16,645 nucleotides of DNA from Escherichia coli. Its GTDB lineage: Bacteria > Pseudomonadota > Gammaproteobacteria > Enterobacterales > Enterobacteriaceae. Shown here piece after piece: positions 1 through 16,645 of this stretch (position 1 is its first letter; each line of letters opens with the position of its first letter). The stretch lies in the NCBI RefSeq assembly GCF_003334355.1, contig NZ_QOWP01000049.1. One strand, given 5' to 3'. A program made the translations under genes and the position numbers. Under the pieces are notes generated by a model that was not told the DNA's origin, made no database searches, and worked only from the letters and a program-made list of their open reading frames with translations.

Positions 1-125
1 TGCAGTTGCCATGTTTTACGGCAGTGAGAGCAGAGATAGCGCTGATGTCCGGCAGTGCTTTTGCCGTTACGCACCACCCCGTCAGTAGCTGAACAGGAGG
101 GACAGCTGATAGAAACAGAAGCCAC
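1..125 (-). CDS. insA: IS1 InsA, N-terminal 41 codons (partial, runs off window start)
   Basis: Minus-strand translation from GTG at 125..123 gives [41 protein letters not shown], matching the IS1 InsA N-terminus from memory. Confidence 0.8.
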
Positions 126-180
126 TGGAGCACCTCAAAAACACCATCATACACTAAATCAGTAAGTTGGCAGCATCACC
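1..180 (-). mobile_element. IS1 insertion sequence, partial (terminus at 180, remainder lies beyond window start)
   Basis: Reverse complement of 158-180 is GGTGATGCTGCCAACTTACTGAT, which I recognise as the IS1 terminal inverted repeat, followed by the insA 5' region. Host AT-rich sequence begins at 181. Confidence 0.85.
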
Positions 181-1188
181 CGATTTTCTTATGGGATTAC
201 CGGTGGGAATGTTTTTGTTAGTTGTCTTGTTTTTGTTTTTTTCTATTTCGCAATCTTAATGACAGTGTCAGCAGATATGCCGCTTGTTGACTGTGTTTTG
301 ACTTTGTCACTGTTGGTTTTGCTTATATTTATGGCAGCAAAAGGACTGCGTTATCAGGCCTTGATGACTAGTCTCAAAGGCGTAAGATTTAGTTTTAATT
401 GCTCTTTGAAAGGGTTCTGGTGGGTAACCTTTTTCTTGCCGATTTTAATGGCCATTGGGATGGGGACTGTTTTCTTTATCTCGACAAAGATGCTACATGC
501 CAATAGTTCAAGTAGTGTTATTATATCTGTGGTTCTGATGGCAATAGTTGGTATTGTTTCCATTGGTATTTTTAATGGTACTTTATATAGTCTGGTAATG
601 AGTTTTCTCTGGAGCAATACCAGTTTCGGTATACATCGTTTCAAGGTGAAATTAGATACTACGTATTGTATAAAATATGCCATTCTCGCATTTTTAGCTT
701 TATTACCTTTTCTCGCTGTTGCTGGTTATATTATCTTCGATCAAATATTAAATGCGTATGATAGTTCTGTGTATGCAAATGATGATATTGAGAATTTACA
801 GCAATTTATGGAAATGCAACGTAAAATGATAATCGCGCAGTTAATCTATTATTTTGGGATTGCTGTTAGCACCAGTTATTTAACGGTGTCGTTGCGAAAT
901 CATTTTATGAGCAACCTGTCACTGAATGATGGGCGTATTCGTTTTCGCTCAACTTTAACATACCACGGTATGCTTTATCGCATGTGTGCGTTGGTGGTGA
1001 TATCCGGGATTACGGGCGGTCTGGCTTATCCACTGCTGAAAATATGGATGATTGACTGGCAGGCAAAAAATACGTATTTGCTGGGCGATTTGGATGACCT
1101 TCCTTTAATCAATAAAGAAGAACAACCAGATAAAGGCTTCTTAGCCAGTATTTCACGGGGAATTATGCCTTCTTTACCATTTCTGTAA
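181..1188 (+). pseudogene. 3' portion of a multi-pass inner membrane protein gene (YjgN-like by position), 5' end severed by IS1
   Basis: Frame-1 reading frame is open from the IS1 junction at 181 to TAA at 1186-1188; first ATG is at 259 (309-aa ORF in track). Highly hydrophobic, visibly AT-rich. Convergent with valS, where K-12 carries yjgN (synteny from memory). No start codon or RBS at the junction. Confidence 0.6.
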
Positions 1189-4570: not shown

Positions 4571-4894
<324 letters not shown>

Positions 4895-7774: not shown

Positions 7775-8856
7775 TGCAACCTTTTGGCGTACTTGACCGC
7801 TATATCGGTAAAACTATTTTCACCACCATCATGATGACGCTGTTCATGCTGGTGTCGCTGTCAGGCATTATCAAATTTGTCGATCAGTTGAAAAAAGCCG
7901 GGCAGGGGAGTTACGACGCGTTAGGCGCAGGAATGTATACCTTGCTGAGCGTGCCGAAAGATGTGCAAATATTCTTCCCGATGGCGGCTTTGCTTGGGGC
8001 GTTGCTTGGTCTTGGGATGCTGGCGCAGCGCAGCGAACTGGTGGTGATGCAGGCTTCTGGTTTCACCCGTATGCAGGTTGCGCTGTCGGTGATGAAAACC
8101 GCCATTCCGCTGGTCTTACTGACGATGGCGATTGGTGAATGGGTCGCGCCGCAGGGCGAGCAGATGGCGCGTAACTACCGTGCGCAGGCGATGTACGGCG
8201 GCTCGTTGCTCTCTACCCAGCAAGGCTTATGGGCGAAAGATGGCAACAACTTCGTCTACATTGAGCGGGTTAAAGGTGACGAAGAGTTAGGTGGCATCAG
8301 TATCTATGCCTTTAACGAGAATCGTCGTCTGCAATCCGTACGCTATGCCGCTACCGCGAAGTTTGACCCGGAACATAAAGTCTGGCGTCTGTCGCAGGTT
8401 GATGAATCTGATCTGACCAATCCGAAACAGATTACCGGTTCGCAGACGGTGAGCGGCACCTGGAAAACCAACCTCACGCCTGACAAACTGGGCGTGGTGG
8501 CGCTGGATCCGGATGCACTCTCTATCAGCGGTTTGCACAACTATGTGAAGTATCTGAAATCGAGCGGTCAGGATGCCGGACGTTATCAGCTCAACATGTG
8601 GAGCAAAATCTTCCAGCCGCTATCCGTGGCGGTGATGATGCTGATGGCGCTGTCGTTCATCTTTGGCCCACTGCGTAGCGTACCGATGGGTGTGCGTGTG
8701 GTCACCGGTATCAGCTTCGGTTTTGTCTTCTATGTACTGGACCAGATCTTCGGCCCGCTGACGTTGGTTTATGGCATCCCGCCGATCATCGGCGCACTGT
8801 TGCCAAGCGCCAGCTTCTTCTTAATCAGCCTGTGGCTGTTAATGAGAAAATCGTAA
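7774..8856 (+). CDS. lptG: LPS export ABC transporter permease LptG, 360 aa
   Basis: ATG at 7774 overlaps the lptF stop by 1 nt (TGATG); AAGGAG RBS at 7761-7766. The track ORF starts 3 nt earlier at GTG 7771; the ATG gives the expected 360 aa. Confidence 0.92.
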
Positions 8857-10518
8857 CCGAATGAACGAATAAAGGGAGCGAAAGCTCCCTTTATTATTGT
8901 TAGCAAAGTGTGCTTCGTTCATTCCTGAAAAATAATTAAAATCCAATATATTGCAGTGGTGTAGGCATGATAAGACGCGCCAGCGTCGCATCAGGCAAAG
9001 ACAAATCGCGCCTGACTTACCTTCTTCTTCCCCCAGCAAACTCCCCAACATCCCGCGTACAATCTGATTCGTCACCTGGCGGGCGGCGCTTTTCGCCATT
9101 GTTTGCACCACACCATCTTTCTTCCCGCCGCGTGGTCCGGTAGTGCCAAACAAAATATCCTTCAATCCACCAAGAATGCCGTCATCCACCGCCACCTCTT
9201 TCCCTTTCACGGCAGGATTATTTTGCTGCTCGGCGCTTGCCTGTACGCCTTTTTGCAACATCTCATAGGCGGATTCCCGGTCCACGTCATCCTCGTACTT
9301 GCCATACACCGGAGAGTGATTAATCAAGCCATTACGCTCATCTTCCGTCACCGGTCCCATCCGCGAACAAGGCGCAATCACCATCGCCCGTTCCACCACA
9401 GAAGGGCTTCCTTTCGCATCCAGAAAAGAGATCAACGCCTCGCCGGTGCCCAGTTCCTGAATCGCCTTTTCGGTATCAAATGCCGGATTGACCCGCATGG
9501 TTTGCGCCGCAGCTTTTACCGCTTTCTGATCTTTGGGCGTAAAAGTCCGCAAAGCGTGTTGAACGCGATTACCGAGCTGGCCGAGCACGTTATCCGGAAT
9601 ATCGGACGGATTTTGCGAAACGAACCAGACGCCCACGCCTTTTGAGCGAATAAGCCTTATCACCTGCTCAATCTTATCCAGCAGTACCTGCGGTGCATCG
9701 TTAAACAGCAGATGTGCCTCGTCGAAGAAAAACACCAGTTTTGGTTTCTCCAGATCGCCCGCTTCCGGCAATTGTTCATACAACTCCGAGAGCATCCACA
9801 ACAGGCTGGCGGCATACAGTTTCGGCATCTGATAAAGCTTCTCGGCGCTGAGGATATTGATAACGCCTTTACCGTTGGCATCGGTGCGCATCCAGTCTTT
9901 GATATCCAGCATCGGCTCACCAAAGAAGTGTGCTGCGCCTTGCTGTTCCAGCGACAACAGCCCGCGCTGGATGGCACCAACCGATGCGCTACTGATATTT
10001 CCGTACTGATTCTGGAAAGATTTGGCGTTATCGCCGATGTACTGGGTAATCGCCCGCAAATCTTTAAAGTCGAGCAGTAACAGCCCCTGATCGTCAGCAA
10101 TGCGGAAGATGATATTCAGCACGCCAGACTGCACATCGTTGAGATTCAACAGCCGCGCCAGCAACAGCGGCCCCAGATCCGAAACCGTCGCCCGCACCGG
10201 ATGGCCTTTCTCGCCAAAGATATCCCACACCACCACCGGATTGGCATGCGGTTGCCAGTCATTGACGCCGATATTTTTAAGCCTTGTGAGCAGTTTTTCC
10301 GACGCCGTTCCTGCCTGCGCGATACCGGTCAGATCGCCTTTCACATCAGCCATAAACACCGGCACGCCGATTTCCGACAATGACTCTGCCAGTTTTTGCA
10401 GCGTAACGGTTTTACCCGTCCCCGTTGCGCCAGTAATCAGCCCGTGACGGTTAGCCATTCCCGGCAGTAAAAACAGTTCTGTGTCCGGCGTGCGGGCAAT
10501 TAACAGGGGTTCGCTCAT
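8839..10518 (-). CDS. yjgR: YjgR-type P-loop ATPase; ORF in this sequence is 559 codons, about 59 longer than expected
   Basis: ATG at 10518 with GGAGG RBS; Walker A GATGTGKT near the N-terminus. The ORF continues through the REP element and the lptG terminator hairpin and overlaps lptG by 18 nt; the last ~59 codons are probably read-through. Confidence 0.85.
8871..8895. terminator. Intrinsic terminator hairpin downstream of lptG
   Basis: AAAGGGAGC-GAAA-GCTCCCTTT stem-loop at 8871-8892 followed by T-rich ATTATTGTT, 15 nt after the lptG stop. Confidence 0.55.
8961..8996. repeat. REP element
   Basis: GTAGGCATGATAAGACGCGCCAGCGTCGCATCAGGC is the reverse complement of the same REP consensus seen in the 4571-4894 array. 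Confidence 0.65.
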
Positions 10519-10617
10519 GAGATTTCCTCCAGTTTCCTGCCTGGAGTATAGGCAACGGCTGTGCACTCTTCACCGCTAAATTCAGCAGATTGCGAGACGC
10601 CTTCCAAAGAGATTTAA

Positions 10618-10644
10618 GTGCCGGGCGACAGGCACCCGGCAAAG
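10618..10644 (-). terminator. Candidate ahr terminator hairpin
   Basis: Inverted repeat TGCCGGG...CCCGGCA just downstream of the ahr stop on the minus strand, followed by a modest U-rich tract. Confidence 0.3.
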
Positions 10645-10647
10645 GGA

Positions 10648-11667
10648 TCAGAAGTCGGCTTTCAGGACCACGCGGTAGCGCGCTTTACCATCGCGTACAT
10701 GCTGGATGGCGTCGTTAATTTTCGACATCGGGAACAGTTCGGTGGTCGGCGCAACCTTGCTGCGGGCGGCAAAACGCATCAGCTTACGCAGCTCATAAGG
10801 CGTGCCGGTAGCAGAACCAGAGATGCTGCGGTCGCCCGCAATTAACGTAAAGGCCGGAACAGACAGCGGCGTGAGAACCGCACCGACCGTATGGAAATTA
10901 CCGCCATAGGTCAGCGCCTCAAAATAAGGCTGCCAGTCGAGGCTGACGTTCACAGTATTGATAATGAGATCAAACTGCCCCGACAGGGCTTTCAGTGCCT
11001 GCGGATCGCGGCTATTCACCACTTTATCGGCACCCATCGCCAGTACTTCCTGCTCTTTCGCCGGATTAGAACTAAAGGCCGTCACCTCGCATCCCATTGC
11101 GTGCAGAAGTTTTATAGCGATATGCCCCAGCCCGCCAATACCAATTACCCCAACGCGGCTGGTAGCAGTGATATGGTGCATCAACAGTGGTTTAAAGACC
11201 GTGATACCGCCGCACAACAGCGGCCCGGCGGACTCGATATCAATATTTTCTGGCAGTGGAATCACCCATTGCCAGTCCGCACGCAACTTCTCGGCAAAGC
11301 CACCGCGATTCATAATCGTCGGCACCGCACCTTGCTCGCAGTTGATCTGATTACCGCTAATACAGGCGTCGCAGTGACCACAGCTACGCGCCGTCCAGCC
11401 AATCCCGACACGCTGACCGACCTGCAAACCTTTATCCTGCGCGGCGCTCCCGAGTGCCACCACGCGCCCAATCACCTCATGCCCGGCAACCAGCGGATAT
11501 TGTGAAAATCCCCATTCGTTATCGATCATCGACAGATCGGAATGACAAATCCCGCAGTAATCCACCTGCACTTCAACATCTTGTGGCTTCAGCTCACCGG
11601 GATCGTACTCATAAACTTCCAGTTCGCCGCCCGCTTCTTTTGCGGCATAGCTTTTTATCATCGACAT
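10648..11667 (-). CDS. ahr: NADPH-dependent aldehyde reductase Ahr (YjgB), Zn-dependent alcohol dehydrogenase family, 339 aa
   Basis: ATG at 11667 ([14 protein letters not shown]) with GAAGGA RBS; zinc-ligand region GHEVIGRV and Rossmann [10 protein letters not shown] motif. The track ORF is 14 codons longer from an upstream ATG without RBS. Confidence 0.9.
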
Positions 11668-11805
11668 TTTTGGGTCCTTCTCTGGTGTTGTTTGGGAAGT
11701 GTAGAGCATGGCAGGGCGGGGTGCCTGGAGTGTGACAAAGGTTACATATCGCTGAGTGTAATGCTGAAAATTTCAGCACTTAGCGAGGTGGGTGCAAGCT
11801 GGCGC

Positions 11806-11833
11806 TTGCATGGTGGCGTGCGACAGGTATAAT
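11806..11833 (+). promoter_or_regulatory. Sigma70-type promoter for leuX
   Basis: TTGCAT (11806-11811), 16-bp spacer, TATAAT (11828-11833); predicted start about 22 nt before the mature tRNA 5' end. Confidence 0.6.
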
Positions 11834-11862
11834 CCACAACGTTTTCCGCATACCTCTTCAGT

Positions 11863-11947
11863 GCCGAAGTGGCGAAATCGGTAGACGCAGTTGATTCAAA
11901 ATCAACCGTAGAAATACGTGCCGGTTCGAGTCCGGCCTTCGGCACCA
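11863..11947 (+). tRNA. leuX: tRNA-Leu (anticodon CAA), 85 nt, type II tRNA with long variable arm, encoded CCA
   Basis: Acceptor stem GCCGAAG/CTTCGGC, anticodon loop TTCAAAA, T-loop GGTTCGAGTCC, 3' ACCA. Confidence 0.95.
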
Positions 11948-11960
11948 AAAGTATGTAAAT

Positions 11961-11984
11961 AGACCTCAACTGAGGTCTTTTTTT
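11961..11984 (+). terminator. Intrinsic terminator of leuX
   Basis: AGACCTCA-AC-TGAGGTCT hairpin immediately followed by a 7-T run. Confidence 0.75.
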
Positions 11985-12060
11985 ATGTCTGAAATCCAGT
12001 ATTTATCTACCTTTCCCGCTATATTAACTCTCTCAAGGTCAACCCATATCAACGTACATC

Positions 12061-12120
12061 TACCAACACATGTTGGTACAGATGATGGTATTTCCGGTTC
12101 GATAATGCTTGTACCAACAG
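12061..12120. promoter_or_regulatory. Repeated TACCAACA motifs upstream of the integrase gene (candidate operator or integrase/Xis binding sites)
   Basis: TACCAACA at 12061-12068, its reverse complement TGTTGGTA at 12071-12078 (palindrome with 2-bp spacer), and a third copy at 12112-12119, just 5' of the int RBS. Confidence 0.3.
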
Positions 12121-12133
12121 GGAGGGAATACGC

Positions 12134-13399
12134 ATGGCATTAACAGATATCAAAGTCAGAACAGCCAAGCCAACAGATAAGCAATATAAGCTGACTGATG
12201 GTGGCGGTATGCATCTGCTTGTCCATCCAAATGGTTCTAAGTACTGGCGTTTGCAGTACCGTTATGAGGGAAAGCAAAAGATGTTGGCACTTGGGGTTTA
12301 TCCTGAAATCACACTAGCGGATGCCAGAGTACGCCGTGACGAGGCGCGTAAGCTGCTTGCGAATGGAGTCGATCCGGGAGACAAAAAGAAAAATGATAAG
12401 GTTGAACAGAGTAAAGCACGAACCTTTAAAGAAGTCGCGATCGAGTGGCATAGCACCAATAAAAAGTGGTCTGAAGATCACGCCCATCGTGTGCTAAAAA
12501 GTCTGGAAGATAATCTTTTTGCAGCGCTTGGTGAACGTAATATCGCTGAGTTAAAAACTCGAGATTTATTAGCACCCATTAAGGCCGTGGAGATCTCTGG
12601 ACGTCTTGAAGTGGCAGCTCGTCTTCAACAGCGCACTACAGCCATCATGCGCTATGCAGTACAAAGTGGGTTAATTGATTATAACCCGGCACAAGAGATG
12701 GCTGGGGCGGTTGCTTCCTGTAATCGACAACATCGTCCGGCGCTTGAATTAAAGCGCATCCCTGAGTTGCTTACAAAAATAGATAGCTATACTGGTAGGC
12801 CGCTAACCCGATGGGCGACAGAACTCACTTTGCTGATCTTTATTCGGTCCAGTGAGCTGCGTTTTGCTCGCTGGTCAGAGATCGATTTCGAAGCGTCTAT
12901 ATGGACTATCCCACCGGAGCGGGAGCCTATTCCTGGAGTGAAGCATTCCCATAGAGGCTCAAAAATGCGTACAACGCATCTAGTGCCTCTTTCAACGCAA
13001 GCCCTTGCAATTTTAAAGCAGATAAAACAGTTTTGTGGGTCTCATGACTTGATATTTATTGGTGATCACGATTCGCACAAGCCTATGAGTGAAAATACGG
13101 TAAATAGTGCGTTACGGGTCATGGGGTATGATACAAAAGTTGAGGTTTGTGGTCATGGCTTCCGCACAATGGCCTGTAGTTCATTGATCGAATCAGGTTT
13201 GTGGTCTCGTGATGCTGTTGAACGTCAGATGAGCCACATGGAGCGAAATTCAGTGAGGGCCGCGTATATCCATAAAGCAGAACATCTGGAAGAACGGCGA
13301 TTGATGTTGCAATGGTGGGCCGATTTTCTTGATGCGAACCGGGAGAAGGGTATCAGTCCGTTTGAATACGCAAATGTTAACAATCCGCTGAGAAGGTGA
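12134..13399 (+). CDS. P4-type tyrosine recombinase / integrase, 421 aa, apparently intact
   Basis: Full-length ORF immediately 3' of a tRNA gene; GGAGGG RBS 7 nt before the ATG; sequence resembles P4-family integrases from memory; visibly lower GC than the core genes. Confidence 0.9.
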   Translation: MALTDIKVRTAKPTDKQYKLTDGGGMHLLVHPNGSKYWRLQYRYEGKQKMLALGVYPEITLADARVRRDEARKLLANGVDPGDKKKNDKVEQSKARTFKEVAIEWHSTNKKWSEDHAHRVLKSLEDNLFAALGERNIAELKTRDLLAPIKAVEISGRLEVAARLQQRTTAIMRYAVQSGLIDYNPAQEMAGAVASCNRQHRPALELKRIPELLTKIDSYTGRPLTRWATELTLLIFIRSSELRFARWSEIDFEASIWTIPPEREPIPGVKHSHRGSKMRTTHLVPLSTQALAILKQIKQFCGSHDLIFIGDHDSHKPMSENTVNSALRVMGYDTKVEVCGHGFRTMACSSLIESGLWSRDAVERQMSHMERNSVRAAYIHKAEHLEERRLMLQWWADFLDANREKGISPFEYANVNNPLRR

Positions 13400-13420
13400 C
13401 AGAAGGCTATTCACACACAT

Positions 13421-13442
13421 GCTCTTCCCCATGGGGAAGAGC
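13421..13442. other. Perfect 22-bp palindrome downstream of int (terminator or protein-binding site)
   Basis: GCTCTTCCCCATGGGGAAGAGC, 21 nt after the int stop; a T-run (13460-13472) follows about 18 nt later, too far for a textbook terminator. Confidence 0.35.
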
Positions 13443-13618
13443 AACCTGCTCCAATAAATTTCTTTTTTATTCCGGCTGATAGCACCGCAATCACCCGTTC
13501 CCTTTAAATAGCCACTTAGCATTCGGCGTAAAATTTGACAGAGAAGGACTATCTCAGCAGGAGCTTAAAGTGTGGTTTTAGGCATAATGTCAATTGACTC
13601 ACCATTTGGGAATTGTAG

Positions 13619-13951
13619 ATGATTGACATAGTTTCCCAAACGGAAAAATCACTTCCCTTCTTGGAAGAAAATCTGCGAGCACATATAAAATGGAAACAGC
13701 ACGGCGGCCCTTGTGAAATCCCCAATGGCCTGGCGTTTTGCGCAATTCACCATAAAGTCTTTGATAAAGGATCGATTGGTCTGGATGAAAATATGCGGGT
13801 ACTGGTCTCGGATGTGGTAAACGGCGGAGGGATCGTTGAGAGATTATTCTGGGATTTTGACGGGAAAACTATTGCGTTGCCACAGGTGCGTAAAAATTAC
13901 CCTTTTGAGGGGGTTGTGGAGTGGCATCGGAAAGAGGTTTTTAGGGGGTGA
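13619..13951 (+). CDS. Small ORF (110 aa) carrying only an HNH-type nuclease core; probably a 5'-truncated remnant
   Basis: Motif HGG...PNGLAFCAIHHKVFDKG resembles the C-terminal HNH core (NGLxLCxxHHxxFDxG) of larger HNH endonucleases. An in-frame TAG sits immediately before the ATG and the RBS is weak. Confidence 0.4.
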   Translation: MIDIVSQTEKSLPFLEENLRAHIKWKQHGGPCEIPNGLAFCAIHHKVFDKGSIGLDENMRVLVSDVVNGGGIVERLFWDFDGKTIALPQVRKNYPFEGVVEWHRKEVFRG

Positions 13952-14061
13952 GGTTGATAATACCGTGCCCCCATAATATTGCCATCTCTTGCATTGAGAT
14001 ATTAAAAGCTACAAATGTTCTCCCCATTTTTAAATGTAGACATTTATAGCAATATCAAAAC

Positions 14062-15060
14062 TTACTGTTCAGCTTTTTCAACAACAAAACCATTTTGCCG
14101 TACAAACTCAATCAAGAGTTCAATATTAACAATGCCCCATTGATTAGAAATAGCAACAATTTCACCAGAAGGAAGTGTAATCAACGCATCTTCATTAATA
14201 TGATAGCGACTCTTTTGCTTCTCTGGTATCTGATCGACAAGCATAACCGTCCGTTTTTTAAAGTCTTCACTTAACCCATTTATTAAATCATTATAACTTG
14301 CAGGATTAAATTGATTTATCCAATCGCGTAATAATTCAAGCGCTAATTTACGCTTATTAAGTTCTTTATCTTTATATATATACCACGTATAGTCCTTCTC
14401 TTTTTTCTGACTGCTAATTAGCTGCTCATCACGTTTTTCACGAAATTTAACTTGATATTCTTCCAATTCAGGAACCGGTATGATTTGCTCTGCATTGATC
14501 AGAACATCATCATTAAATCTATAAGGCGTCAGACGAACACATCGAATGTCTACCCCCTTATCTCTTAACCAAATCGCAGTGGTAGTCAGTTCCTTGCTAA
14601 AATCCGATGAAGCCAAAACAATTCTGATATCTTTTCCGAAATCAACAAGCTCAGTTTCATCCAGCTCAACAAATTCAAGTATTTTTTCTTTCGCATCGGC
14701 ATCGCAGTTTTGTTTTTTCAAATACGTCTGGAAATATTCACATGCTTTCGCAAAACTCATTGTGGAAATCATCGCTGCATATCGTAGTGCCTGTAACTCC
14801 ATATGCGCACCAGTTTCATCACGTTTTAATTCGATAACCACTAAATTTGCCTGTTTATCGATTGCCAATAAATCAATTCGCCGACGGCTATCTTCCCAGT
14901 CAGAAAACTCTTCGGAAATCACCAGACAATCAGGAGCAATAATATCTATGTTTTTTTTGATTGCTTCCTGTAAATCATAACGTTCCTGTAATCCTTCCAG
15001 AGTAAAGGTCGTTTTTTCTAAAGCATGTAGTTCTTTATTTGCGATATTGTACAGCGCCAC
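14062..15060 (-). CDS. Uncharacterised protein with N-terminal RecB-like PD-(D/E)xK nuclease motif, 332 aa (GTG start)
   Basis: Uninterrupted 332-codon ORF with AGGAAG RBS; very AT-rich. Residues 61-94 RIDLLAIDKQANLVVIELKRDETGAHMELQALRY give D-x(n)-ExK plus QxxxY. The C-terminal ~200 aa has no motif I recognise. Confidence 0.75.
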   Translation of the reverse strand: MALYNIANKELHALEKTTFTLEGLQERYDLQEAIKKNIDIIAPDCLVISEEFSDWEDSRRRIDLLAIDKQANLVVIELKRDETGAHMELQALRYAAMISTMSFAKACEYFQTYLKKQNCDADAKEKILEFVELDETELVDFGKDIRIVLASSDFSKELTTTAIWLRDKGVDIRCVRLTPYRFNDDVLINAEQIIPVPELEEYQVKFREKRDEQLISSQKKEKDYTWYIYKDKELNKRKLALELLRDWINQFNPASYNDLINGLSEDFKKRTVMLVDQIPEKQKSRYHINEDALITLPSGEIVAISNQWGIVNIELLIEFVRQNGFVVEKAEQ

Positions 15061-15353
15061 GTTTATCTTCCTTTTTTAACTGATTTTACAGGGACTTTAA
15101 CACAGTAAAAATTTTATTTCCTGAGCTGTAATCGATTAAGCTGATGCACTAAATGGGAATCATATAGGGTCATTTCCAGTCTCACTTATAGAAATGGCTA
15201 AAGCATGACTCTCGCCAAAACCGTGTATGTGTTGTACATAACGCGATCATCCCTCTCACAAATTGCCTTTTCTCATGGCATCTCGCCCGGTCCCCCATTA
15301 CAATCACTTTTTGTTTTTTGCGAGCTGCATTCCAGTCTTCAGAGGGTTTTTCG

Positions 15354-15959
15354 ATGATTAAAAATGACAAGGCATGGGTAGGAGACTTGCTGGGCGGGCC
15401 GCTCATGAGCAGGGAAAGCCGCGTCATTGCCGAACTGTTGCTAACCGATCCCGATGAACAGACATGGCAAGAGCAAATTGTTGGCCACAACATTTTACAA
15501 GCCTCTTCTCCTAACACCGCAAAACGTTACGCGGCAACAATCAGGCTTCGCCTGAACACGCTTGATAAAAGCGCGTGGACATTGATTGCCGAAGGTAGTG
15601 AGCGGGAACGCCAACAACTTCTGTTTGTGGCTCTGACGCTACATTCGCCGGTAGTTAAGGATTTTCTGGCTGAAGTGGTGAACGATCTGCGCAGGCAGTT
15701 CAAGGAAAAGTTGCCTGGCAATAGTTGGAACGAATTTGTTAATAGCCAGGTTCGCCAACATCCGGTACTCGCCAGCTACTCAGATTCATCTATTGCAAAA
15801 ATGGGAAACAATCTGGTGAAGGCGCTTGCTGAAGCGGGTTATGTGGATACGCCCCGCAGACGTAACCTGCAGGCAGTTTACCTTTTACCGGAAACTCAGG
15901 CAGTGTTACAGCGCCTGGGGCAACAGGACTTGATATCTATTCTGGAGGGAAAACGGTGA
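15354..15959 (+). CDS. brxA: BrxA-like protein (DUF1819-type), 201 aa; first gene of a BREX-like cluster
   Basis: ATG at 15354 with AGAGGG RBS; ~200-aa, largely helical-looking protein whose stop overlaps the next start (GTGA). Assignment is from size, coupling and gene order, not from a recognised motif. Confidence 0.55.
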   Translation: MIKNDKAWVGDLLGGPLMSRESRVIAELLLTDPDEQTWQEQIVGHNILQASSPNTAKRYAATIRLRLNTLDKSAWTLIAEGSERERQQLLFVALTLHSPVVKDFLAEVVNDLRRQFKEKLPGNSWNEFVNSQVRQHPVLASYSDSSIAKMGNNLVKALAEAGYVDTPRRRNLQAVYLLPETQAVLQRLGQQDLISILEGKR

Positions 15960-16558
15960 TAGATCCCGTTCTTGAATATCGCCTGTCTCAAATCCAGAGT
16001 CGCATTAACGAAGATCGCTTCCTCAAAAATAACGGCTCCGGAAATGAAATTGGTTTTTGGATCTTTGATTATCCCGCGCAGTGCGAACTGCAGGTACGGG
16101 AGCATTTGAAGTATCTGCTCCGGCATCTGGAAAAGGACCATAAATTTGCCTGTCTGAATGTCTTCCAAATCATCATCGATATGCTCAATGAACGCGGCCT
16201 TTTCGAGCGCGTCTGCCAGCAGGAAGTCAAAGTGGGTACTGAGACGCTGAAAAAGCAGCTTGCTGGTCCGTTAAATCAGAAAAAAATCGCTGATTTTATA
16301 GCGAAAAAAGTCGATCTGGCTGCCCAGGATTTTGTCATCCTTACCGGCATGGGCAACGCCTGGCCATTAGTACGCGGTCATGAACTGATGAGTGCCTTGC
16401 AGGATGTCATGGGGTTCACCCCACTGCTGATGTTTTATCCTGGCACCTACAGCGGGTACAACCTTTCCCCGCTCACAGACACCGGTTCACAAAATTATTA
16501 TCGCGCTTTCAGACTGGTACCAGATACGGGACCCGCAGCAACATTGAATCCTCAATGA
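15956..16558 (+). CDS. brxB: BrxB-like protein (DUF1788-type), 200 aa
   Basis: GTG start at 15956 with GGAGGG RBS, overlapping the upstream stop by 4 nt; ~200 aa; followed by a third co-directional gene. Assignment by architecture. Confidence 0.55.
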   Translation: MIDPVLEYRLSQIQSRINEDRFLKNNGSGNEIGFWIFDYPAQCELQVREHLKYLLRHLEKDHKFACLNVFQIIIDMLNERGLFERVCQQEVKVGTETLKKQLAGPLNQKKIADFIAKKVDLAAQDFVILTGMGNAWPLVRGHELMSALQDVMGFTPLLMFYPGTYSGYNLSPLTDTGSQNYYRAFRLVPDTGPAATLNPQ

Positions 16559-16621
16559 AGAGCATAATGAACCGCCCCGGAAATCCTGGAGACTAAACTC
16601 CCTGAGAAAGAGGTAAACAGG

Positions 16622-16645
16622 ATGACTAAAAATACTCGTTTTTCC
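16622..16645 (+). CDS. 5' end of the third gene of the cluster (MTKNTRFS...), runs off the window; would be brxC (large ATPase) if the BREX assignment holds
   Basis: ATG at 16622 preceded by AAAGAGG RBS, 63 nt after the brxB-like stop; only 8 codons visible. Confidence 0.35.

What the first reader, a model, noticed from the sequence alone, without database searches (positions are those of the whole stretch)
15354..16645. Start of a BREX-like defence cluster (two coupled ~200-aa genes followed by a third gene)
Two small genes with overlapping stop/start (GTGA at 15956-15959) are followed 63 nt later by a third gene with a strong RBS. This matches the brxA-brxB-brxC head of type I BREX (brxA, brxB, brxC, pglX, pglZ, brxL). 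The rest of the system would lie beyond the window. The assignment rests on size, order and island context only.
Basis: inference. Interest (0 to 1): 0.65.

Follow-up and report, generated by a model that had tools for sequence, protein, structure and literature searches.

The report
IS-interrupted head of BREX-1 operon
The two small coupled genes are brxA and brxB of the well-known E. coli HS-type BREX phage-defence operon, but the "third gene" is the transposase of an IS1203/IS629 insertion sequence sitting 2 nt in front of where brxC should start, so this is an ordinary, probably disabled, copy of a known system.

Summary
The sequence observation is correct.

- **brxA and brxB are real.** Window 15354-15959 encodes BrxA (PADLOC 1e-114; Pfam PF08849 1.7e-50). 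Window 15956-16558 encodes BrxB (PADLOC 5e-68; PF08747 6.6e-35). The two genes share a GTGA stop/start overlap.
- **They belong to a known system.** BrxB is 100% identical and BrxA 198/201 identical to the experimentally characterised E. coli HS BREX-1 system. The genes lie in a tRNA-Leu (leuX) integrase island.
- **The third ORF is not brxC.** Homology to intact BREX loci stops at 16567. From 16568 the last 78 nt are 100% identical to the left end of IS1203/IS629, including its own RBS and the orfA start MTKNTRFS (ATG at 16622).
- **The insertion site is precise.** In 21 fetched intact loci the spacer reads TGAagagcataacaATG(brxC). It is unbroken in 319 of 322 complete E. coli genomes. The IS therefore sits 2 nt upstream of the brxC start codon.
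- **The sequence cannot be extended.** The window is the whole 16,645-bp contig QOWP01000049.1 of the E. coli ECOR04 draft assembly, which breaks in IS copies at both ends. Whether brxC-pglX-pglZ-brxL survive could not be read.
- **Likely consequence.** brxC is needed for both methylation and defence, so the system is probably off.

This is a known system and of low interest.

The parts
15354..15959 (+). brxA (BREX-1 BrxA, DUF1819), 201 aa from ATG 15354, with GAGGG at 15343-15347. Some annotations start at ATT 15357 and give 200 aa.
   Evidence: PADLOC BrxA PDLC02439 at 1.1e-114, full length. Pfam PF08849 at 1.7e-50. PDB 7ZGE BrxA at 5.6e-48. 198/201 identical to E. coli HS BrxA. RefSeq annotation 'BREX-1 system protein BrxA' on 99.9%-identical DNA.
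15956..16558 (+). brxB (BREX-1 BrxB, DUF1788), 200 aa. Its GTG start overlaps the brxA stop (GTGA at 15956-15959), which fits translational coupling.
   Evidence: PADLOC BrxB PDLC02463 at 4.8e-68. Pfam PF08747 at 6.6e-35. PDB 9NV3 at 2.9e-116 and BrxC-BrxB complex entries 9ZLL/9ZN5. 200/200 identical to E. coli HS BrxB.
16559..16567 (+). First 9 of the 11 nt of the native brxB-brxC spacer (agagcataa). The last 3 nt (TAA, 16565-16567) are the expected 3-bp target-site duplication.
   Evidence: Intact loci read TGAagagcataacaATG. Homology to all intact loci ends at 16567. IS1203 makes 3-bp duplications in L033 and L034.
16568..16645 (+). Left end of an IS3-family IS1203/IS629 element: terminal inverted repeat starting TGAACCGCCCCGG, the IS's own RBS GAGG, and the first 8 codons of transposase orfA (ATG 16622, MTKNTRFS). 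It is cut off by the end of the contig.
   Evidence: 78/78 identical to annotated IS1203 copies in E. coli DX6 and in an O157:H7 plasmid. orfA of that copy begins MTKNTRFSPEVRQRA. The 166-nt query spanning the brxB end and this segment matches 23,688 places in 3,640 of 5,426 genomes, where IS-side hits are annotated as IS3/IS1203 transposase.
14062..15060 (-). Context: a divergently oriented 332-aa PDDEXK/NucS-like nuclease gene (PADLOC candidate PDC-S11) that accompanies this BREX cassette.
   Evidence: PADLOC PDC-S11 at 5.8e-114. Weak NucS matches. A 332-aa gene occupies the same position upstream of brxA in 18 of the 21 intact loci fetched.
11863..13399 (+). Context: the island's integration module, tRNA-Leu(CAA) leuX (11863-11947) and a tyrosine integrase (12134-13399).
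   Evidence: ARAGORN. Annotation of the homologous region in HS30-1 and Pfam Phage_integrase on the homologues.

Best explanation
Window 15354-16558 is the brxA-brxB head of a type I BREX (bacteriophage exclusion) operon of the E. coli HS kind, carried on a leuX-integrated island in E. coli ECOR04. In an intact operon BrxA is a small DNA-binding protein. BrxB is an inactive AAA+-like adaptor that binds PglZ tightly and docks onto the N-terminal ATPase domain of BrxC. BrxB, BrxC, PglX and PglZ together methylate an asymmetric 6-bp site (GGTAAG in strain HS), and the full set with BrxL blocks replication of unmethylated phage DNA. In this strain a 1.3-kb IS1203/IS629 element has transposed into the 11-nt brxB-brxC spacer, 2 nt upstream of the brxC ATG and in the same orientation as the operon. 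What looked like the third BREX gene is the IS's own transposase orfA with its own ribosome-binding site.

Shown here: the identity of brxA and brxB, the exact breakpoint, and the identity of the IS end.

Inferred: the insertion separates brxC and everything downstream from the brxA promoter and from the native brxC translation-initiation region. [quoted passage not shown] My estimates are about 0.6 that brxC-brxL are still present but poorly or not expressed, about 0.3 that they were lost by a later IS-mediated deletion or rearrangement, and about 0.1-0.15 that enough read-through expression remains for function.
For: - BrxA and BrxB profile hits and PDB relatives, including BrxC-BrxB complexes.
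- 99.9-100% DNA identity to annotated BREX-1 operons up to position 16567 and no further.
- BrxB 100% and BrxA 98.5% identical to E. coli HS.
- The intact spacer TGAAGAGCATAACAATG is identical in 21 fetched loci, against TGAAGAGCATAA|TGAACCGCCCC in the window.
- The brxB-brxC junction is unbroken in 319 of 322 complete E. coli genomes that carry it.
- The last 78 nt are 100% identical to annotated IS1203 left ends and the orfA start. The IS is 1310 bp with 3-bp target duplications.
- The window equals the whole contig QOWP01000049.1 of GCA_003334355.1, and QOWP01 is ECOR04 (PMC12278908). This explains why the sequence stops inside a repeat.
- Gene requirements: deleting brxB, brxC or brxZ abolishes both protection and methylation in the HS system, while brxA is dispensable there (PMC6326788). 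The current model of the BrxB:PglZ:BrxC core is in PMC13326643.
- IS-broken copies of the same cassette exist elsewhere: L017, L019 and L040.
Against: - Nothing downstream of the IS end can be read, so neither the presence nor the expression of brxC-pglX-pglZ-brxL in ECOR04 was tested.
- The IS is co-oriented with the operon, so transcription from the brxA promoter or from the transposase promoter could read through into brxC. IS3-family ends can also contribute outward promoter elements (general knowledge, not tested here).
- The junction was found only in ECOR04-type draft contigs (4 contigs) and in none of 5,426 complete genomes. It therefore rests on short-read assembly.
Confidence: 0.85

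Rival explanations
1. One reading: an intact BREX-1 head in which the ORF starting at 16622 is brxC and the rest of the operon simply continues beyond the window.
For: The gene order and sizes of the first two genes fit, and an ATG with a good RBS follows.
Against: BrxC of this cassette starts MNIEQIF 11 nt after the brxB stop in every intact locus. The window instead reads MTKNTRFS 63 nt downstream, inside 78 nt that are 100% identical to IS1203 and present in thousands of copies in E. coli.
Confidence: 0.01
2. Orphan remnant: the IS marks the edge of an IS-mediated deletion or inversion, so brxC-pglX-pglZ-brxL are absent from (or relocated in) the ECOR04 genome and brxA-brxB are leftovers.
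For: Relatives show this kind of decay. In L017 an IS1 directly follows brxA, brxB onwards is gone and the neighbourhood is rearranged. H115 has a truncated brxB. The contig is bounded by IS copies on both sides and carries other signs of decay, namely IS1 in yjgN and a frameshifted yjgR.
Against: The IS end is complete and abuts an otherwise untouched spacer, as expected for a fresh simple insertion. A simple insertion with both halves kept is also seen in relatives (L019). There are no data from the other side of the IS.
Confidence: 0.3
3. The insertion is real but BREX still works: brxC-brxL are expressed by read-through from the brxA or transposase promoters or from an outward promoter at the IS right end.
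For: The IS is co-oriented with the operon. In the HS system, brxABC and brxXZL expressed from two separate plasmids still gave full defence, so physical operon continuity is not required (PMC6326788).
Against: The native upstream region of brxC is displaced by 1.3 kb; only CA, or TAACA with the duplication, would remain before the ATG. The transposase frame ends 42 nt before the IS end in the reference copy, so there is no translational coupling. The simple consensus scan was not run on the hypothetical right junction, and no promoter there was demonstrated.
Confidence: 0.12
4. Assembly artefact: the brxB-IS junction is a chimeric contig end and the real genome has an uninterrupted operon.
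For: The sequence is a short-read draft contig that ends 78 nt into a multi-copy repeat.
Against: If brxB-brxC were contiguous in the reads, the assembler would have extended into unique brxC sequence instead of into a repeat. Four contigs carrying the same rare YjgR variant all fall in the 10-20 kb length class. The breakpoint coincides exactly with the first base of the IS inverted repeat.
Confidence: 0.03

Closest known systems
E. coli HS type I BREX (BREX-Ec, brxABCXZL; Gordeeva et al. 2019, PMC6326788)
   Same: BrxB is 200/200 identical and BrxA 198/201 identical. The DNA is 98.7% identical over 15061-16567. The GTGA overlap is the same, and the spacer sequence is the same up to the insertion point.
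   Different: In HS, brxC starts 11 nt after brxB. Here IS1203/IS629 intervenes 2 nt before that ATG, and the four downstream genes were not observed. The chromosomal neighbourhood also differs: HS has an IS1 and a truncated PDC-S11-like gene upstream. The PglX specificity of ECOR04 is unknown, since PglX length varies from 1180 to 1225 aa among relatives.
leuX-island BREX-1 cassette of E. coli HS30-1, EC17CM13 and relatives (integrase - HNH remnant - PDC-S11 nuclease - brxABC-pglX-pglZ-brxL)
   Same: 99.3% identity over window 10648-16567 to HS30-1, and 100% over 15100-16567 to EC17CM13. The order is the same: tRNA-Leu, integrase, HNH remnant, 332-aa nuclease, brxA, brxB.
   Different: Those genomes continue into brxC, pglX, pglZ and brxL. 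The window continues into an IS.
IS1203 / IS629 (IS3 family), as in E. coli O157:H7
   Same: 78/78 nt identical left end, including the inverted repeat, the RBS and the orfA start MTKNTRFS.
   Different: Only the first 78 of 1310 nt are in the window. The frameshift site, orfB (DDE domain), the right inverted repeat and the target duplication are not seen.
Other IS-disrupted copies of this BREX cassette (L017: IS1 after brxA; L019: IS inside brxC; L040: IS1 in pglX)
   Same: The same cassette is inactivated by insertion sequences.
   Different: The IS type and the position differ. The ECOR04 insertion lies between genes, leaves every visible reading frame intact, and would act only through expression.

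Membership tests
Type I BREX (BREX-1) | BrxA (DUF1819 / PF08849) gene present | tested here: met
   PADLOC 1.1e-114, Pfam 1.7e-50, PDB 7ZGE 5.6e-48.
Type I BREX (BREX-1) | BrxB (DUF1788 / PF08747) gene immediately downstream of brxA | tested here: met
   PADLOC 4.8e-68, Pfam 6.6e-35, PDB 9NV3 2.9e-116, and a 4-nt overlap with brxA.
Type I BREX (BREX-1) | BrxC (~1200-aa P-loop/AAA+ ATPase) following brxB | tested here: not met
   Within the window, the ORF after brxB is IS1203 orfA and not brxC. Homology to brxC-bearing loci stops at 16567, 2 nt before the brxC ATG. Whether brxC exists beyond the IS is not readable.
Type I BREX (BREX-1) | PglX N6-adenine methyltransferase, PglZ phosphatase/nuclease and BrxL Lon-like ATPase in the same operon | not testable with these tools
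   The window is a complete draft contig that ends in the IS. Look-ups with BrxC alleles of the closest relatives did not reach ECOR04 contigs.
Type I BREX (BREX-1) | Asymmetric 6-bp m6A methylation of host DNA and phage exclusion | not testable with these tools
   This needs a methylome and plaque assays. It has been shown only for the near-identical HS system (PMC6326788).
IS3 family, IS1203/IS629 | Terminal inverted repeat starting TG, and a leader identical to reference copies | tested here: met
   78/78 identity to two annotated IS1203 copies from the first base TGAACCGCCCCGG.
IS3 family, IS1203/IS629 | orfA (HTH) followed by a -1 frameshift into orfB (DDE transposase), a right inverted repeat, and a 3-bp target duplication | not testable with these tools
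   Only 8 codons of orfA lie in the window. The features are present in the reference copies L033 and L034.

The most novel reading that the evidence does not exclude
The IS1203 insertion exactly between brxB and the brxC start codon may be a selected, potentially reversible off-switch of BREX. It would leave brxA-brxB expressed and all reading frames intact, and it would contribute to ECOR04 being a permissive host widely used for phage isolation (PMC11267873). It would also provide a natural strain in which BrxA/BrxB are made without BrxC, PglX, PglZ and BrxL.
Probability: 0.1. Interest if true: 0.3.

Novelty: already known. Interest (0 to 1): 0.1.

Why it matters
It matters little beyond correct annotation. 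The locus is a copy of the best-studied E. coli BREX system, and disruption of defence operons by insertion sequences is commonplace.

There are two practical points. First, automatic defence-system callers and readers working from drafts will miscount BREX in ECOR04, because the operon is split by an IS at a contig end. Second, ECOR04 is used as a phage-isolation and genetics host, so knowing that its BREX is probably disabled by an IS 2 nt upstream of brxC helps when interpreting host-range data. It also offers a simple natural polar mutant for anyone studying BREX expression.

Tried and rejected
**1. Finding what lies beyond the IS.**
- Exact-protein look-ups with BrxB, the PDC-S11 nuclease and Ahr returned only other genomes, because these alleles are too common.
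- The frameshifted YjgR allele did identify the source contig, but that contig is the window itself.
- Look-ups with BrxC of the two closest relatives (EC17CM13 and HS30-1) did not reach any ECOR04 contig.

**2. Looking for the junction in complete genomes.** None of 5,426 complete E. coli genomes has the brxB-IS junction.

**3. Literature.** I searched for BREX, a methylome or defence calls for ECOR04. These gave only the strain identity and its use as a rough, phage-permissive host.

**4. Collection scans not run.** I did not scan metagenome contigs or genome contigs for the junction. ECOR04 is not a species representative and the junction is strain-specific, so the expected yield did not justify the cost.

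**5. Apparent extra homology upstream of 16568.** Some IS1203 copies seemed to match the window upstream of 16568. On alignment this proved to be chance similarity of A/T-rich flanks and not a longer IS.

**6. Promoter and terminator scan of 14900-16645.** It found no more sites than in shuffled sequence, so no promoter claim is made.

**7. NCBIfam.** It gave no hit for BrxA or BrxB. The library lacks a matching model at its cut-offs, and the Pfam and PADLOC hits are decisive.

Full report
**Observation.**
- One ORF runs from ATG 15354, with GAGGG 6 nt upstream, to TGA 15957-15959 (201 aa).
- A second ORF starts at GTG 15956 and ends at TGA 16556-16558 (200 aa). GTGA at 15956-15959 is therefore a 4-nt stop/start overlap.
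- After 63 nt there is an ATG at 16622, preceded by GAGGTAAACAGG. Only eight codons of this ORF (MTKNTRFS) fit before the window ends.

**The two small genes.**
- The first protein matches PADLOC BrxA end to end (1.1e-114), Pfam BrxA PF08849 (1.7e-50) and the crystal structure of BrxA, 7ZGE (5.6e-48).
- The second matches PADLOC BrxB (4.8e-68), Pfam BrxB PF08747 (6.6e-35), PDB 9NV3 (2.9e-116) and BrxB chains in BrxC-BrxB complex entries.
- NCBIfam returned nothing for either protein. That reflects the library and does not count against the assignment.
- At the DNA level, 15100-16567 is 99.5-100% identical to loci annotated brxA and brxB in 312 complete E. coli genomes.
- In HS30-1 and EC17CM13 these genes head a canonical brxA-brxB-brxC-pglX-pglZ-brxL operon.
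- The cassette is the one studied experimentally in E. coli HS: BrxB is 200/200 identical and BrxA 198/201 identical.
It comprises tRNA-Leu(CAA) at 11863-11947, a tyrosine integrase at 12134-13399, an HNH-endonuclease remnant at 13619-13951, and a divergent 332-aa PDDEXK/NucS-like gene at 14062-15060 that PADLOC lists as candidate PDC-S11.

**The third 'gene'.**
- Every alignment to an intact BREX locus stops at window position 16567.
- In intact loci the brxB stop is followed by an 11-nt spacer and then brxC: TGAagagcataacaATGaatattgaa. This string is identical in 21 fetched loci.
- The junction is uninterrupted in 319 of the 322 complete E. coli genomes that carry it.
- The window reads TGAagagcataa|TGAACCGCCCCGGAAATCC... 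instead.
- A 166-nt query (16480-16645) spanning the end of brxB and these last 78 nt matches 23,688 places in 3,640 of 5,426 E. coli genomes, and hits to the IS part lie under features annotated 'IS3-like element IS1203 family transposase'.
- Aligned to two such copies, one from E. coli DX6 and one from an O157:H7 plasmid, the 78 nt are 100% identical from the first base of the terminal inverted repeat. The flanks are unrelated.
- The annotated transposase of the reference copy begins MTKNTRFSPEVRQRA.... The 'strong RBS' and ATG at 16622 are therefore the IS's own orfA start.
- The reference element is 1310 bp long and makes 3-bp target duplications.
- The IS thus sits 2 nt upstream of the brxC start codon, co-oriented with the operon. 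TAA (16565-16567) is the expected duplicated target.

**Why the sequence stops.**
- A look-up with the unusual YjgR product of the window returned a single locus that is the exact reverse complement of the window. It is the complete 16,645-bp contig QOWP01000049.1 of assembly GCA_003334355.1.
- The prefix QOWP01 belongs to E. coli ECOR04 (PMC12278908).
- The contig begins in an IS1 copy (window 1-181) and ends in the IS1203 copy. The draft assembly broke at repeats.
- No complete E. coli genome in the collection has the brxB-IS junction.
- Look-ups with the BrxC alleles of the closest relatives did not reach any ECOR04 contig.
- Whether brxC, pglX, pglZ and brxL lie on the far side of the IS could therefore not be determined here.

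**How it most likely works.**
- From the literature on this system (PMC6326788; PMC13326643): BrxB forms a tight complex with PglZ and docks onto the N-terminal AAA+ domain of BrxC.
- BrxL is needed only for exclusion. [quoted passage not shown]
- In ECOR04, brxA and brxB remain intact and coupled. brxC has lost its native upstream region and is separated from the operon promoter by 1.3 kb of IS.
- In the reference IS copy the transposase frame ends 42 nt before the IS end, so there would be no translational coupling into brxC.
- I infer that BREX is non-functional in this strain. Either brxC-brxL are poorly expressed after a simple insertion (about 0.6) or they were lost in a later IS-mediated rearrangement (about 0.3). 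Residual function through read-through remains possible (about 0.1-0.15).
- Related genomes show both kinds of decay of the same cassette: IS1 directly after brxA with loss of brxB onwards (L017), an IS inside brxC with both halves kept (L019), and IS1 in pglX (L040).
- ECOR04 is described as a rough strain used to isolate and propagate many coliphages (PMC11267873). That is compatible with a weak defence repertoire but is not evidence for BREX inactivation.

**Comparison and novelty.** This is a copy of the E. coli HS-type BREX-1 head at the protein-identity level, interrupted by a common IS. For BREX-1 membership, the BrxA and BrxB criteria are met. The 'BrxC follows' criterion is not met in the window, and the remaining criteria are untestable. 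Nothing here departs from known biology, so I rate it already known and of low interest.

**Tried without result.** The promoter/terminator scan gave no excess over shuffles. Literature searches for ECOR04 BREX status or methylome data found nothing. Collection-wide scans for the junction were not run because the junction is strain-specific and ECOR04 is not a species representative.

Noticed in passing
window 1-181 and 182-1188: The contig starts inside an IS1 copy (InsA N-terminus on the minus strand). That copy interrupts yjgN: homology to intact yjgN begins at 182, and ORF 259-1188 is only the 3' 309 codons of a 398-aa gene.
   Followed up: partly
window 8842-10518 (-), indel near 9029: yjgR (HerA-like ATPase) has a 1-nt deletion in a C-run a few codons before its normal stop. 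This gives a 559-aa product instead of 500 aa, running through a REP element and overlapping the 3' end of lptG. It may be a real frameshift or a homopolymer error in the draft. This rare product is what identified the source contig.
   Followed up: partly
window 4593-4890: A 98-bp unit is repeated 3.1 times (94% matches) between holC and pepA. It is built from REP-like palindromes (a BIME-type array). Relatives have spacers of different lengths in the same position, which suggests one to three copies.
   Followed up: partly
window 10567-10647 (between yjgR and ahr): The idnR-idnT-idnO-idnD-idnK (gntII, L-idonate) operon present in HS30-1 and EC17CM13 is absent here. yjgR is directly followed by ahr, as in several other E. 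coli genomes.
   Followed up: partly
window 14062-15060 (-): A 332-aa protein with an N-terminal PDDEXK/NucS-like region matches PADLOC candidate PDC-S11 (5.8e-114). A 332-aa gene lies divergently upstream of brxA in 18 of the 21 intact loci fetched, and it is truncated in E. coli HS itself. It is an uncharacterised possible accessory or independent defence gene.
   Followed up: partly
window 13619-13951 (+): A 110-aa ORF that RefSeq annotates in the homologous position as the C-terminal remnant of an HNH endonuclease. Other versions of the island carry a full 290-aa ScoMcrA-like HNH gene there.
   Followed up: no
L017 8308-9705; L019 6191-8491; L040 6188-8642: Other public genomes carry the same BREX cassette broken by insertion sequences at other positions: IS1 right after brxA, an IS inside brxC, and IS1 in pglX. 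IS-mediated inactivation of this system therefore recurs.
   Followed up: partly
window 15354-15359: Public annotations disagree on the BrxA start. Some use ATG 15354 (201 aa) and others the non-canonical ATT 15357 (200 aa, the RefSeq WP_ proteins), although the DNA is identical.
   Followed up: yes
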